The notes under the pieces were generated by a model. The model had not been told where the DNA came from. It did no database searches and saw only the letters and a list, made by a program, of their open reading frames with translations. From NCBI GenBank assembly GCA_012103395.1, contig WLWV01000003.1, positions 1 through 39,295 on the forward strand: a DNA stretch of 39,295 nt, read 5' to 3'. Below are positions 6,249 to 8,582 of the stretch, piece by piece. Both the position numbers and the translations under genes were made by a program. The stretch comes from Gammaproteobacteria bacterium. GTDB lineage: Bacteria; Pseudomonadota; Gammaproteobacteria; Arenicellales; Poriferihabitantaceae. Numbering within the stretch: the first letter of the stretch is position 1; every line of letters starts with the position of its first letter.

Positions 6249-6373
6249 GGCTATTCATGTGGCAAGAGCGCTTCAGGTGAAAAATGCGGAGCAGCGTAGG
6301 AGATGCAATTTTCCAATTTGAGAATGTAGTCTTTATTTCTATTTCGAAAATAGCAAATTATGTGATTTACCCA

Positions 6374-6411
6374 TTGCATTTGTTGTATGCTTTTGAGTAC
6401 AATCGCGCTCC
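6374..6411 (+). promoter_or_regulatory. Putative sigma70 promoter of the tRNA-tuf operon with GC-rich discriminator
   Basis: TTGCAT (6374-6379), 18-nt spacer, TACAAT (6398-6403), followed by CGCGCTCC. AT-rich upstream region. Confidence 0.6.
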
Positions 6412-6503
6412 ATTTTGGATTTGGGTGGGTGCTTATGATTGATCCCCTCAAAGTAATTGGCTTGGCATCGGTGTACGGTGTTCGTTTGTATAAGGTTTGT
6501 TTT

Positions 6504-6845
6504 GCCTGCATAGCTCAGTTGGCTAGAGCAGCTGATTTGTAGAAAAATTGCACCTTAATGGGGAAACCTATTAAGTGGAGGCGGCTAAAACGGGGAAACC
6601 TTAACTGACTCAGCGTTTTGAATACTGAAAGCGCTATTCAGCTGGCAATCCCGTGCTATCTGTTAAGCCAGATATTTCTGGTGATGTTGATGGAGAGTGT
6701 AGAGACTTTACACCGCCCACCTAAAGCATATTGATTGTCAGGGTGAAGAGAAAGTCCAGACCCCAAACTCTCAAGTGAGAGGTCGCGAAAGCGATAGTAG
6801 GTAAGAATCAGCAGGTCGTGGGTTCGAGTCCCTCTGCGGGCTCCA
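6504..6845 (+). tRNA. tRNA-Thr(UGU) split by a group I intron (exon 1 6504-6540, exon 2 6806-6845)
   Basis: Joined exons give a 77-nt cloverleaf: acceptor GCCTGCA/TGCGGGC, D arm GCTC/GAGC, anticodon stem GCTGA/TCAGC with loop TT-TGT-AA, T loop TTCGAGT, T73 and encoded CCA. It occupies the thrU position of the Thr-Tyr-Gly-Thr-tuf cluster. Confidence 0.95.
6541..6805 (+). ncRNA. Group I self-splicing intron (IC3-like), 265 nt, no ORF
   Basis: Follows exon U6540 and ends in G6805. IGS GCA at 6550-6552; P2 6554-6575 with GAAA loop; P3 GGCGG 6580-6584 / CCGCC 6713-6717; P4 ACGGGG 6590-6595 / TCCCGT 6649-6654; P7 G-A-GACT 6702-6707 / AGTCC 6753-6757; P8 CACCT/GGGTG; P9 hairpins at 6768-6781 and 6782-6795. 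Confidence 0.93.
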
Positions 6846-6953
6846 CTTATAATAAGAATGCTTATTTGGAGGCGCCTTTTTAATAGATTGAAGATGTTGC
6901 CAGGCTTTAGGCAGGATCTGTATATATAGATAGATTTTAAAGCGTTAGTTATT

Positions 6954-7038
6954 GGAGGGGTTCCCGAGCGGTCAAAGGGGGCAGACTGTAAATCTGCTGG
7001 CTCAGCCTTCGGAGGTTCGAATCCTCCCCCCTCCACCA
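6954..7038 (+). tRNA. tRNA-Tyr(GUA)
   Basis: GGAGGGG/CCCCTCC acceptor, GCAGA-CTGTAAA-TCTGC anticodon arm, long variable arm, TTCGAAT, ACCA end. Confidence 0.97.
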
Positions 7039-7071
7039 TTTCTATTTCAGCTTTAGTCTGAGCGGTAAGTT

Positions 7072-7146
7072 GCGGGTGTAGTTCAAAGGCTAGAACCTCA
7101 GCCTTCCAAGCTGATGATGTGGGTTCGATTCCCATCACCCGCTCCA
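7072..7146 (+). tRNA. tRNA-Gly(UCC)
   Basis: GCGGGTG/CACCCGC acceptor, TCAGC-CTTCCAA-GCTGA anticodon arm, TTCGATT, TCCA end. Confidence 0.97.
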
Positions 7147-7211
7147 TTAAGATTTGAGAAGCTGTTGAGGGCAAATCATGCTTCTCATGAGCAGTTTTTC
7201 TATCTTCTGAG

Positions 7212-7287
<76 letters not shown>

Positions 7288-7370: not shown

Positions 7371-8582
7371 TTTTCGGAAATTACAATAATGGCGAAAGAG
7401 AAATTTGAAAGAACGAAGCCGCATGTGAATGTCGGCACGATTGGTCACGTAGATCATGGTAAAACGACGCTGACGGCGGCGATGACAAGAGTGTTGTCGA
7501 GCAAATTTGGTGGTGAAGCTCAGGCGTTTGACCAAATTGATAATGCTCCAGAGGAGCGAGAGAGAGGTATAACGATTTCGACGGCCCACGTTGAATACGA
7601 AACAGAAGCCCGACACTATGCGCACGTAGATTGCCCAGGTCACGCTGACTATGTAAAGAACATGATTACCGGAGCGGCCCAGATGGATGGAGCGATTTTG
7701 GTGTGTTCTGCAGCAGATGGTCCAATGCCTCAAACGCGAGAGCACATCCTGCTGGCTCGCCAGGTGGGTGTACCTTACATTGTTGTGTTCCTCAACAAAG
7801 CGGACATGGTGGATGATGAAGAGTTGATGGAGTTGGTTGAAATGGAGATTCGAGAGCTGCTTGATGCTTATGAATTTCCTGGTGATGACACTCCGATTAT
7901 AGCAGGCAGTGCACTGAAAGCGCTGGAAGGCGATACAAGTGATATAGGGGAGCCAGCAATATTGAAGCTTGCGGAAGCGCTTGATGAATATATCCCGATG
8001 CCAGATCGTGCGGTAGATGGCGCTTTTTTGATGCCGGTAGAGGATGTGTTTTCAATTTCAGGACGTGGAACAGTGGTTACCGGTCGTATAGAGCGCGGTG
8101 TGATCAAGGTTGGCGAAGAGATTTCGATCATAGGGATTCACGACACGAAGAACACGACTTGCACAGGAGTAGAGATGTTCCGTAAGTTGTTGGATCAGGG
8201 TGAGGCGGGTGATAACGTGGGAATTCTTCTTCGTGGAACGAAACGAGAAGAGGTTGAGCGGGGTCAGGTATTAGGTAAGCCGGGTTCAATTACGCCGCAC
8301 ACCAAATTTGAAGCAGAGGTGTATATTCTGTCGAAGGACGAGGGTGGACGCCACACTCCATTTTTCAATGGCTATCGCCCGCAGTTCTATTTTCGCACCA
8401 CGGATGTAACGGGAGCGTGTGAATTGGTGGAAGGTGTTGAGATGGTTATGCCGGGTGATAATGTTCAGATGACAGTGGAGTTGATAGCTCCGATCGCGAT
8501 GGAAGAAGGTTTGCGTTTTGCAATTCGCGAAGGTGGTCGAACAGTTGGTGCCGGTGTGGTTGCCAAAATTATTGAATAAGCG
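7371..8582 (+). repeat. Copy 1 of a 1212-bp direct repeat (tuf plus flanks); copy 2 is at 24073-25284
   Basis: Both copies start TTTTCGGAAATTACAATA-ATG and end TAA-GCG. The proteins and the antisense ORF translations are identical. Confidence 0.9.
7389..8579 (+). CDS. tuf: Elongation factor Tu (tufB position)
   Basis: [39 protein letters not shown] and NKAD motifs; 396 aa. Confidence 0.99.

What the first reader, a model, noticed from the sequence alone, without database searches (positions are those of the whole stretch)
6504..6845. tRNA-Thr(UGU) interrupted by a 265-nt group I ribozyme at position 36/37
Seen in sequence: the first tRNA of the conserved Thr-Tyr-Gly-Thr-tuf cluster stops after its anticodon (…GCTGATTTGT at 6540) and resumes at 6806 (AATCAGCAGGTC…TCCA). 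The insert starts after a U and ends in G, which are the group I splice rules. It contains pairable P2, P3, P4, P6, P7, P8 and P9 elements, plus the core strings GTGTAGAGACT and AAGAGAAAGTCC. Established knowledge: the classical bacterial tRNA group I introns are in Leu(UAA) and fMet (cyanobacteria), Ile(CAU) (Azoarcus) and Arg(CCU) (Agrobacterium), and the last two are also inserted just 3' of the anticodon. Inference: Thr(UGU) in an apparent gammaproteobacterium is a host tRNA I do not recognise from that set, so this may be an undescribed or under-reported insertion site. Standard annotation would probably miss this tRNA and leave the region as intergenic or as a spurious ORF. I cannot confirm novelty without a search.
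Basis: partly seen in the sequence, partly recalled or inferred. Interest (0 to 1): 0.9.

Follow-up and report, generated by a model that had tools for sequence, protein, structure and literature searches.

The report
Group I intron splitting tRNA-Thr(UGU)
The only threonine tRNA gene for ACA codons found in this marine gammaproteobacterium is split by a 265-base probably self-splicing RNA intron that routine annotation misses; related bacteria share it, and it is a new example of a known kind rather than a new mechanism.

Summary
Intron-aware ARAGORN calls tRNA-Thr(tgt) at 6504-6845 with a 265-nt intron at 6541-6805, after U36 and ending in G. Default ARAGORN and Rfam at gathering thresholds miss it. 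Rfam RF00028 matches full-length at 34.2 bits (cut-off 50), E 3.7e-7.

A P1-P9 model fits 20 homologs. 97.4% of cells pair, against 37-46% when partners are slid, and 13 pairs carry compensatory changes. RNAalifold recovers the same helices.

The intron sits at the same site in 67 of 68 related loci. It is present in about 64 of 242 other genomes of the order, which record titles name Arenicellales. Orthologous intron-less alleles exist, even within one genus. It is the only tRNA-Thr(UGU) gene found here and in five near-complete (1-2 contig) relatives.

Splicing itself is inferred; the RNA data were inconclusive.

Novelty is limited. A 2020 preprint raised the interrupted bacterial tRNA classes from 4 to 21, but its list is an unreadable image, so I cannot tell whether Thr(UGU) is already included. 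Verdict: real, probably functional, a new member of a known kind.

The parts
6504..6540 (+). 5' exon of tRNA-Thr(UGU): acceptor 5' strand, D arm, anticodon-stem 5' strand, and loop up to U36. The anticodon TGT is 6538-6540.
   Evidence: ARAGORN -i. Exons joined in memory are called Thr(tgt) by default ARAGORN. 75-76 of 77 identical to intron-less orthologs of genus g7.
6541..6805 (+). Group I intron, 265 nt, with no ORF. The longest stop-free stretch is 49 aa.
   Evidence: ARAGORN -i. RF00028 at 6531-6779, 34.2 bits, E 3.7e-7, model positions 1-253. Covariation. ORF check.
6538..6552 (+). P1: 6538-6541 pair with 6549-6552. U6540-G6550 is the wobble pair at the 5' splice site. 6547-6549 (ATT) could also pair with exon 2 bases 6806-6808 as P10.
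   Evidence: 4 pairs, UG 20 of 20 at the wobble position, all invariant. RNAalifold predicts the same helix. P10 is my inference from the sequence.
6554..6575 (+). P2 hairpin, 9 bp, with a GAAA loop at 6563-6566.
   Evidence: 6 of 9 pairs carry changes on both sides in the 20-sequence alignment. Recovered by the MFE fold and RNAalifold.
6580..6584 (+). P3 5' strand; pairs with 6713-6717.
   Evidence: The middle pair is UA in 10, CG in 8 and UG in 2 sequences. Recovered.
6591..6653 (+). P4 (6591-6595 with 6649-6653), enclosing J4/5, P5 (6599-6600 with 6644-6645) and a variable P5 extension.
   Evidence: P4 and P5 pairs are invariant, 20 of 20. The extension varies in length and sequence. Recovered.
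6656..6693 (+). P6 (6656-6660 with 6689-6693) and a variable P6a hairpin.
   Evidence: MFE fold. The five RNAalifold P6 pairs have 4, 12, 7, 6 and 5 sequences with both sides changed.
6702..6708 (+). P7 5' strand: G6702, bulged A6703, then 6704-6708. It pairs with 6752-6757 as a pseudoknot. G6704-C6756 is the proposed guanosine-binding pair.
   Evidence: 6 pairs invariant in 20 of 20 sequences. The strands align with the P7 consensus segments of RF00028. The guanosine-binding assignment follows general knowledge of group I introns, which I recall rather than tested.
6713..6717 (+). P3 3' strand.
6718..6745 (+). P8: proximal stem 6718-6721 with 6742-6745, plus a distal stem. It carries a CCUAA(A/G)-type motif that resembles a GAAA-tetraloop receptor.
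   Evidence: The proximal pair 6719-6744 is AU in 12, GU in 6 and GC in 2 sequences. The distal pairs have 10, 4, 9 and 6 sequences with both sides changed. The receptor reading is inference from memory.
6746..6757 (+). J8/7 (6746-6751) and the P7 3' strand (6752-6757).
   Evidence: Invariant block in 20 sequences. Aligned to the RF00028 J8/7-P7 consensus.
6760..6805 (+). P9 domain: P9 (6760-6763 with 6799-6802), P9a hairpin (6768-6772 with 6777-6781), P9b hairpin (6782-6786 with 6791-6795, GAAA loop), and the terminal G6805.
   Evidence: 4 of 5 P9b pairs carry compensatory changes. P9a pairs have 11, 6, 7 and 8 sequences with both sides changed. The fourth P9 pair is unpaired in 8 of 20 sequences. 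The last intron base is G in 65 of 65 ARAGORN-called homologs.
6806..6845 (+). 3' exon of tRNA-Thr(UGU): A37, A38, anticodon-stem 3' strand, variable loop, T arm, acceptor 3' strand, discriminator and CCA.
6954..7287 (+). Downstream tRNA-Tyr(gta), tRNA-Gly(tcc) and tRNA-Thr(ggt) of the same cluster, followed by the ORF at 7389-8579 that I read as tuf.
   Evidence: The same tRNA order appears in the homologous loci. The tuf name is not from a family search.

Best explanation
The region 6504-6845 is the gene for tRNA-Thr(UGU). A 265-nt group I intron of the bacterial tRNA type interrupts it between nucleotides 36 and 37 of the anticodon loop. That type is classed as IC3 in the literature.

Proposed mechanism (inferred):
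1. The gene is transcribed as the first member of a Thr-Tyr-Gly-Thr tRNA cluster upstream of tuf.
2. The intron folds into the P1-P9 core.
3. A free guanosine bound at the P7 pocket (G6704-C6756, next to bulged A6703) attacks the bond after U6540. That bond is marked by the U6540-G6550 wobble pair in P1.
4. The terminal G6805 then occupies the same pocket, and the 3'-OH of U6540 attacks the bond before A6806.
5. This ligates the exons into a 77-nt tRNA with anticodon loop UUUGUAA and releases the intron.

The intron has no homing endonuclease gene. It is mainly inherited along with the tRNA gene in Arenicellales, with occasional precise loss or gain.

Shown: the gene structure, the splice-site nucleotides, the conserved and covarying helices, the distribution, the empty sites, and that no other tRNA-Thr(UGU) gene was found. 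Inferred: catalysis, in vivo splicing, and the evolutionary history.
For: 1. Gene structure. ARAGORN -i calls Thr(tgt) with a 265-nt intron. The joined exons are called a normal tRNA.
2. Family model. RF00028 matches full-length at 34.2 bits, E 3.7e-7. This and the Arg(UCU) intron are the only two matches in the whole genome at E <= 0.01.
3. Structure.
- 65 modelled pairs on 20 homologs are 97.4% paired, against 37-46% when partners are slid.
- 13 pairs have changes on both sides, against a shuffled mean of 5.6; 0 of 500 shuffles reach 13.
- RNAalifold independently predicts P1, P2, P3, P4, P5, P6, P8, P9a and P9b; 26 of its 88 pairs keep pairing through changes on both sides.
- The MFE z-score is -4.77.
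4. Splice-site rules. All 65 ARAGORN-called homologs have TTTGT|A...G|AATCA.
5. Empty sites. Intron-less orthologs in the same tRNA cluster read straight through the junction and are 75-76 of 77 identical to the joined exons.
6. Selection.
- It is the only Thr(tgt) gene among the 31 ARAGORN -i calls in this 93%-complete genome.
- Five near-complete (1-2 contig) intron-bearing relatives hold no uninterrupted copy. The intron-less query splits into two halves at one locus, and the next-best hit is 86% identical over query 1-63. In four of the five genomes that hit overlaps the CGT-anticodon arm, so I read it as Thr(CGU).
- ACA is 13.2 per 1000 codons in the window's 12 long ORFs and occurs 7 times in the 7389-8579 ORF.
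7. Kinship. The core matches introns in Leu(UAA), Arg(CCU) and Arg(UCU) tRNA genes of other Gammaproteobacteria. The tRNA introns group by host in a tree.
Against: - RF00028 scores below its gathering score of 50, here and in all 19 homolog loci tested. The best is 44.6; 6 of 19 pass E <= 0.001.
- The catalytic helices P1, P4 and P7 never vary in the 20 sequences, so they offer no covariation evidence.
- The homologs are related, so counts across them are not independent.
- The MAFFT alignment is not structure-aware in the variable hairpins.
- The fourth P9 pair is unpaired in 8 of 20 sequences, including the window.
- No ligated-exon RNA from this organism was seen (inconclusive).
- The simple promoter scan found nothing upstream of 6504.
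- The genome is a 339-contig assembly, so 'only copy' is limited to what was assembled.
Confidence: 0.9

Rival explanations
1. The insertion is an inactive relic, so the interrupted gene is a tRNA pseudogene. ACA would then be decoded by another tRNA.
For: There is no direct RNA evidence of splicing. The Rfam score is below the cut-off. The assembly is incomplete, with only 26 tRNAs by default ARAGORN.
Against: - Long invariant core blocks and compensatory changes in P2, P3, P6, P8 and P9 persist across several families of an order. This implies selection on the fold.
- U at -1 and a terminal G are kept in 65 of 65 homologs.
- No uninterrupted Thr(UGU) gene exists in five near-complete (1-2 contig) genomes that carry the intron.
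- ACA codons are in common use.
Confidence: 0.04
2. The intron is a genuine group I intron but cannot splice on its own. It would depend on a host protein cofactor or chaperone for folding in vivo.
For: Protein-assisted splicing is known for other group I introns; the review PMC3984707 says some rely on intron- or host-encoded factors (passages). Nothing here tests autonomy. One P9 pair is mismatched in the window.
Against: - The intron is compact (265 nt).
- It has two GAAA tetraloops (L2 and L9b). L2 is invariant in the 20 sequences and L9b is kept in 19 of them. Such loops are typical of self-stabilised small tRNA introns, which is my recollection rather than a test.
- No candidate maturase ORF lies in or next to the intron.
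Confidence: 0.06
3. The insertion is some other kind of element, or an assembly artefact. Candidates are a protein-spliced bulge-helix-bulge tRNA intron, a group II intron, or a small mobile insertion.
For: None beyond the sub-threshold Rfam score.
Against: - The same insertion stands in single-contig chromosomes of relatives.
- No Rfam family other than RF00028 matches it meaningfully; the next-best E-values are 0.08 or more.
- It lies at 36/37 with U at -1 and G at the end, not at the 37/38 site that PMC4090602 (abstract start) calls canonical for archaeal and eukaryotic protein-spliced tRNA introns.
- It has the group I core strings and a P7 pseudoknot.
Confidence: 0.01

Closest known systems
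tRNA-Ile(CAU) group I intron of Azoarcus and other betaproteobacteria ('Ile2.5Ug' in Williams 2020; subgroup IC3)
   Same: It has the same insertion site, directly after U36 of the anticodon, with U at -1 and a terminal G. It is small and has no ORF. I recall that it has a short P1 built on the anticodon and GAAA loops on P2 and P9. The site nomenclature comes from Williams 2020.
   Different: The host tRNA differs, so the guide sequence differs. The Thr intron has longer, variable P5, P6, P8 and P9a extensions, giving 234-343 nt.
tRNA-Arg(CCU) group I intron ('Arg.5Ug'; first described in Agrobacterium)
   Same: It has the same 36/37 site. It occurs in relatives of this organism: G024, G016, G012, G007 and G005, at 214-261 nt with CCT|...G|AAGCG. 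Its P7-P9 part and 3' exon match the window's gene at 67-75%.
   Different: In the tree the three class-sample Arg(CCU) introns fall on the other side of a branch with support 98, together with the Leu(UAA) introns. The Arg(CCU) introns of the five close relatives were not in the tree. No group I-interrupted Arg(CCU) gene was seen in this genome: ARAGORN lists two cct calls, one with a spurious-looking 11-nt 'intron', and RF00028 finds only the Thr and Arg(UCU) introns.
tRNA-Arg(UCU) group I intron in this same genome (contig C221:6867-7257, minus strand)
   Same: It is the nearest outgroup of the Thr introns in the tree (joint branch support 98). Its RF00028 score is similar at 33.4 bits. Default annotation misses it too.
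   Different: It is inserted two nucleotides earlier, after U34 (CCTT|...G|CTAAG). BLAST finds only a 28-nt stretch alike at 93%.
[quoted passage not shown]
   Same: It has the same catalytic core type. It is the commonest host among the class-sample genomes whose introns matched the window's core: 11 of 20 genomes.
   Different: It is inserted between U34 and A35. It forms a separate clade.
The 17 further interrupted-tRNA classes of Williams 2020 (bioRxiv 10.1101/2020.01.27.920355)
   Same: These are the same kind of object, found by the same logic of Rfam model plus ARAGORN with introns. A 'Thr.5Ug' class may be among them.
   Different: I cannot tell. The classes are listed only in Table 1 and Fig. 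3, which are images and not held, and the text never names Thr. That survey used January 2017 genomes, and I expect that most of the MAG records found here are more recent.

Membership tests
Group I intron (Rfam RF00028) | The 5' splice site follows a U that forms a U-G wobble pair in P1. | tested here: met
   U6540-G6550; UG in 20 of 20 aligned homologs. Exon 1 ends TTTGT in 65 of 65.
Group I intron (Rfam RF00028) | The last intron nucleotide is G (omega G). | tested here: met
   G6805; G in 65 of 65 homologs.
Group I intron (Rfam RF00028) | Conserved core of P3-P4-P6 and P7-P3'-P8-P7', with a P7 pseudoknot, a bulged A and an adjacent G-C pair. | tested here: met
   All helices can be drawn and are 100% paired in 20 sequences for P3, P4, P7 and proximal P8. 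P3, P6 and P8 covary. P4 and P7 are invariant, so they are consistent with the model but add no covariation support.
Group I intron (Rfam RF00028) | The covariance-model score reaches the curated gathering score (50 bits). | tested here: not met
   34.2 bits, E 3.7e-7, full model 1-253. The homologs score 32.7-44.6 bits. Williams 2020 notes that none of the 12 Rfam seed sequences is bacterial, and used cut-offs of 18-20 bits for such introns.
Group I intron (Rfam RF00028) | Guanosine- and Mg-dependent self-splicing. | not testable with these tools
   This needs an in vitro assay or junction-spanning RNA reads. The RNA contigs laid were inconclusive.
Bacterial tRNA anticodon-loop introns, subgroup IC3 | Located in the anticodon loop of a bacterial tRNA gene and related in sequence to the classical tRNA introns. 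| tested here: met
   The site is 36/37. The core matches introns in Leu(UAA), Arg(CCU) and Arg(UCU) genes. See also the tree.
Bacterial tRNA anticodon-loop introns, subgroup IC3 | Assignment by a subgroup-specific model (the GISSD IC3 model or Williams' gpI_bact_tRNA model). | not tested
The IC3 label rests on kinship with introns that the literature calls IC3 (Williams 2020 text; GISSD passages).
Mobile group I intron with a homing endonuclease gene | An ORF for a homing endonuclease lies inside the intron. | tested here: not met
   The longest stop-free stretch in the 265 nt is 49 aa. The homologs are 234-343 nt long.
Protein-spliced (bulge-helix-bulge) tRNA intron of archaea and eukaryotes | A short intron at 37/38 removed by a splicing endonuclease. 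| tested here: not met
   The site is 36/37, the length is 265 nt, and the intron has a group I core.

The most novel reading that the evidence does not exclude
Thr(UGU) at 36/37 may be a host-and-site class that no catalogue yet lists, including the 21 classes of the 2020 preprint. It would be an anciently fixed, endonuclease-free intron in the single-copy tRNA for ACA across much of an almost uncultured order of marine and sponge-associated Gammaproteobacteria. Its closest relative sits at a different anticodon-loop position (34/35) in tRNA-Arg(UCU) of the same genomes. That would document transposition of a group I intron between tRNAs and between loop positions within one lineage.
Probability: 0.35. 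Interest if true: 0.5.

Novelty: new member of a known kind. Interest (0 to 1): 0.35.

Why it matters
1. Annotation. Default tRNA finders and Rfam at its curated threshold miss this gene and the Arg(UCU) gene. Genomes of this order will therefore appear to lack the decoders for ACA and AGA, and tRNA-based quality counts for these MAGs will be too low.

2. Intron biology. The set of about 48 distinct natural variants offers ready comparative data for a small ribozyme. It shows an invariant core, variable P5, P6, P8 and P9a arms, empty-site alleles within one genus, and a sister intron at another loop position. It also gives a case for studying gain and loss of an intron that has no homing endonuclease.

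3. It adds nothing new about mechanism. Group I introns after U36 of bacterial tRNAs have been known since the 1990s (my recollection).

Tried and rejected
RNA evidence for splicing
- No run held more than 0.34 of the sampled words, and the RNA runs held 0.04-0.07.
- Only contigs could be laid (X5, X15, X18, X19, at 85% likeness).
- One X18 contig and one X19 contig cover the intron's 3' half contiguous with exon 2 of a relative. These could be precursor RNA or carried-over DNA.
- Joined-exon tRNA-Thr contigs exist in X18 and X19, but with other stem letters and other flanks, so they come from other organisms.
- Nothing here supports or refutes splicing.

Promoter and terminator scan
- No promoter-like site lies upstream of 6504. 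The single terminator-like site, 6464-6482, is within chance expectation. Nothing was learned.

Literature
- No paper in the held library names a bacterial tRNA-Thr group I intron or tRNA introns in Arenicellales.
- PMC5733544 (passages) reports 22-49-nt 'group I introns' in cyanobacterial Arg, Gly and Lys tRNAs, not Thr. I did not rely on it.
- PMC3984707 (passages), PMC8450103 (passages), PMC11915505 (passages) and PMC2238919 (passages) do not mention a Thr host.
- Table 1 and Fig. 3 of Williams 2020 and its supplementary alignment could settle the matter, but they could not be seen.

Spread beyond the order
- One class-sample genome of another family (G534) has the Thr intron in an unrelated context.
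- None was found among the other 398 class-sample genomes scored. The phylum sample of 400 other genomes gave only two partial core matches.
- The host call for G669 (L109) by ARAGORN looks unreliable.
- Two hits are labelled Acidiferrobacterales (L027) and Parasphingorhabdus (L045). I could not show whether these are real spread or mislabelled or mis-binned MAGs. Their flanks resemble other hit loci at 70-75%, and their introns nest inside the Thr clade.

Backup-copy check
- Of the roughly 15 two-mismatch hits that keep TGT in the loop, I fetched only the five whose stems stayed mostly complementary. None is a tRNA. One search is the stronger test.

Rows left out
- L028 and L055 (ARAGORN mis-registered them as Tyr) and L065 (ARAGORN made no call there; the pattern match lies near the end of the stored DNA) are not in the tree.
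- The two locus sets L004-L022 and L023-L071 overlap in genomes, so the 68 loci are not 68 species. They give 46 distinct intron sequences besides the window.

No covariance model of my own was built. The alignment exceeds the 400-column limit, and the question was answered without one.
Full report
**Observation.**
- Default ARAGORN finds only Tyr, Gly, Thr(ggt) and Trp in the window. Rfam at gathering thresholds finds the same four tRNAs and no intron.
- With introns allowed, ARAGORN calls a 77-nt tRNA-Thr(tgt) at 6504-6845, split by a 265-nt intron at 6541-6805, 'tttgt-Intron-aatca'.
- In standard tRNA numbering the cut lies between U36 and A37.
- Shifting the cut by one base would leave the same joined product, because both the first intron base and the first exon-2 base are A. 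Only the stated cut puts U before the 5' site and G at the intron's end.
- The exons joined in memory are called tRNA-Thr(tgt) by default ARAGORN.

**Is it a group I intron?**
- With permissive filters on 6450-6900, RF00028 matches 6531-6779 over the whole model (1-253) at 34.2 bits and E 3.7e-7. This is below the gathering score of 50.
- Against the whole 3.36-Mb genome the same match has E 6.6e-7. The only other match at E <= 0.01 is a second tRNA intron.
- I drew a P1-P9 model by hand (coordinates in 'parts') and had it counted on a MAFFT alignment of the window plus 19 homologs. 97.4% of 1300 cells pair, against 37-46% when the 3' partners are slid by 1-3 columns.
- 13 of 65 pairs have changes on both sides, against a shuffled mean of 5.6; 0 of 500 shuffles reach the observed value on any of the five measures.
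- The compensatory pairs are six in P2, one in P3 (UA 10, CG 8, UG 2), one in P8, four in P9b and one in the acceptor stem.
- P1, P4 and P7 never vary, which is expected of a catalytic core but gives no covariation evidence.
- RNAalifold, run without my model, predicts P1, P2, P3, P4, P5, P6, proximal and distal P8, P9a and P9b. 26 of its 88 pairs keep pairing through changes on both sides. Because it cannot draw the pseudoknot, it replaces P7 with invariant alternatives.
- The single-sequence MFE fold recovers P2, P3, P4, P5, P6, P9a and P9b, with z = -4.77.
- The alignment shows the usual group I pattern of long invariant core blocks between hairpins that vary in length and sequence.

**Distribution.**
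- The 342-nt gene finds full-length or split matches in most genomes of the same family and in several other families of the order.
- ARAGORN -i calls Thr(tgt) with an intron at the same site in 19 of 19 loci, followed by Tyr-Gly-Thr(ggt) wherever the contig runs on.
- An exact-pattern scan of one genome per species finds 49 records. All are MAGs. Their titles read Arenicellales, Ca. Poriferihabitaceae, Ca. Spongiihabitans, Ca. Poriferihabitans or unclassified Gammaproteobacteria, plus one Pseudomonadota, one Acidiferrobacterales and one Parasphingorhabdus label.
- Over both locus sets, 65 of 68 loci are called Thr(tgt) plus intron. Two more are recovered after correcting an ARAGORN one-base mis-registration, and ARAGORN made no call in the last, where the pattern match lies near the end of the stored DNA.
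- Introns are 234-343 nt long (median 294). All 65 have TTTGT|A...G|AATCA.
- In an order-wide search of 243 genomes including this one, 64 of the 242 others have a best E below 1e-15, which exon-only matches cannot reach. One more has a match running into the intron.
- By family the counts are f1 48 of 68, f9 6 of 7, f13 2 of 2, f3 3 of 3, f8 2 of 2, f7 1 of 1, f6 1 of 20 and f2 1 of 46. There are none in f12 (36), f4 (4), f5 (2), f11 (49), f10 (1) or f14 (1). I counted these from the table.
- Genus g7 holds four genomes with the intron and four without.
- The intron-less genes lie in the same tRNA cluster. They are 75-76 of 77 identical to the window's joined exons, and their anticodon arm reads straight through the junction.
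- Outside the order, one genome of another family (G534) carries a 218-nt Thr intron in an unrelated context. None was found in the other 398 class-sample genomes scored or in the phylum sample of 400 other genomes. These are samples, so this means 'not found in those searched'.

**Is the gene needed?**
- In this 93%-complete, 339-contig genome the interrupted gene is the only Thr(tgt) among the 31 intron-aware calls.
- In five near-complete (1-2 contig) relatives that carry the intron, an intron-less Thr(UGU) query splits into two halves (95-100% identical) at one locus. The next-best match is 86% identical over query 1-63. In four of the five genomes it overlaps the CGT-anticodon arm listed, so I read it as Thr(CGU).
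- ACA makes up 13.2 per 1000 codons in the window's 12 long ORFs and occurs 7 times in the 7389-8579 ORF that I read as tuf.
- The tRNA must therefore be made from this gene, which implies splicing. That step is an inference.

**Kinship with other tRNA introns.**
- Partial core matches in 20 of the 399 other class-sample genomes scored lie in these hosts: tRNA-Leu(taa) in 11 genomes, Arg(cct) in 3, Arg(tct) in 1, doubtful Ser calls in 2, the G534 Thr gene in 1, and no tRNA call in 2.
- Five relatives in the same family also carry the classical Arg(CCU) intron at 36/37.
- This genome carries a 314-nt intron in its only tRNA-Arg(tct), inserted after U34. RF00028 scores it at 33.4 bits.
- I built a quick maximum-likelihood tree of 63 introns on 245 columns. 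The 48 Thr introns fall on one side of a branch (SH-aLRT 90). Their sister is the pair of Arg(UCU) introns, and the joint branch has support 98. Leu(UAA) and Arg(CCU) lie on the other side.
- The tree rests on a short MAFFT alignment and is unrooted, so 'single origin' is not excluded rather than shown.

**Mechanism.** The steps are given under Best explanation. They are the standard two-step transesterification of group I introns, which is established knowledge that I recall rather than tested. I mapped it onto this sequence as follows.
- The 5' site is set by the U6540-G6550 wobble pair.
- The guanosine pocket is at G6704-C6756, beside bulged A6703.
- The terminal G is G6805.
- A possible 3-bp P10 forms between 6547-6549 and 6806-6808.
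- The GAAA loops on P2 and P9b probably dock into helical receptors in P8 and P5, as I recall for the small tRNA introns.

There is no room for a homing endonuclease. The patchy distribution therefore needs precise loss, or transfer of the whole interrupted allele.

**Known or new?**
- The kind is well known.
- Williams 2020 (whole text read) gives the four classical classes as Leu.3Ug, Arg.5Ug, fMet.2Ug and Ile2.5Ug, all IC3. It adds 17 more from 80,413 genomes, but lists them only in a table and a figure that are not held. The text does not name Thr.
- Seven literature searches found no paper naming a bacterial tRNA-Thr group I intron or tRNA introns in Arenicellales.
- I therefore file it as a new member of a known kind. 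The chance that the class is already in that table is roughly even, or somewhat better.

**Limits.**
- There is no direct RNA evidence.
- The homologs are related and are not independent.
- The subgroup label is by kinship only.

Noticed in passing
own genome contig C221:6867-7257, minus strand (locus L002:1403-1793); not in the window: The only tRNA-Arg(tct) found in this genome is also split. The intron is 314 nt and follows U34 (CCTT|...G|CTAAG), within a Pro-Arg-His-Leu tRNA cluster. RF00028 scores it at 33.4 bits, below the cut-off. The same host and site occur in G338 (L090). In the tree these introns are sister to the Thr introns.
   Followed up: partly
L098-L102 (G024, G016, G012, G007, G005): Relatives in the same family also carry the classical tRNA-Arg(cct) intron at 36/37 (214-261 nt). 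Some genomes of this family therefore have at least two split tRNA genes (Thr UGU and Arg CCU), and possibly a third (Arg UCU), which I did not check in them.
   Followed up: partly
L028, L055, L072/L092: ARAGORN -i mis-registers some Thr(tgt)+intron genes by one base and reports them as tRNA-Tyr(gta) with an intron. Re-splicing at U|...G| restores Thr(tgt). Automated surveys could mislabel the host tRNA in this way.
   Followed up: yes
genus g7: G007, G154, G155, G157 against G018, G156, G158, G159 (L093-L095): The intron shows presence/absence polymorphism within one genus, with exons 75-76 of 77 identical to the window's. This points to recent precise loss or gain without a homing endonuclease.
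   Followed up: partly
L072 (G534:C76), another family of the class: A 218-nt Thr(UGU) intron nests inside the Arenicellales intron clade. Its flanks are unrelated and it has no Tyr-Gly-Thr cluster beside it. This may be lateral transfer of the interrupted gene, or a taxonomic or binning problem.
   Followed up: partly
window 6656-7219 (minus strand) and 6251-6511 (minus strand): Mechanical ORFs of 187 aa and 86 aa overlap the intron, three tRNA genes and exon 1. They are almost certainly spurious, but a gene caller that misses the split tRNA could call them as genes.
   Followed up: no
window 6698-6845, as laid from run X18 (record 6) and run X19 (record 13): Metatranscriptome contigs hold the 3' half of a relative's intron contiguous with exon 2. 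The P9a hairpin is replaced by one like that of G017. This could be unspliced precursor or carried-over DNA.
   Followed up: no
L027 and L045: Two records that carry the intron are titled Acidiferrobacterales and Parasphingorhabdus (an alphaproteobacterial name). Their introns sit inside the Thr clade, so mislabelling or mis-binning seems likely but was not shown.
   Followed up: partly
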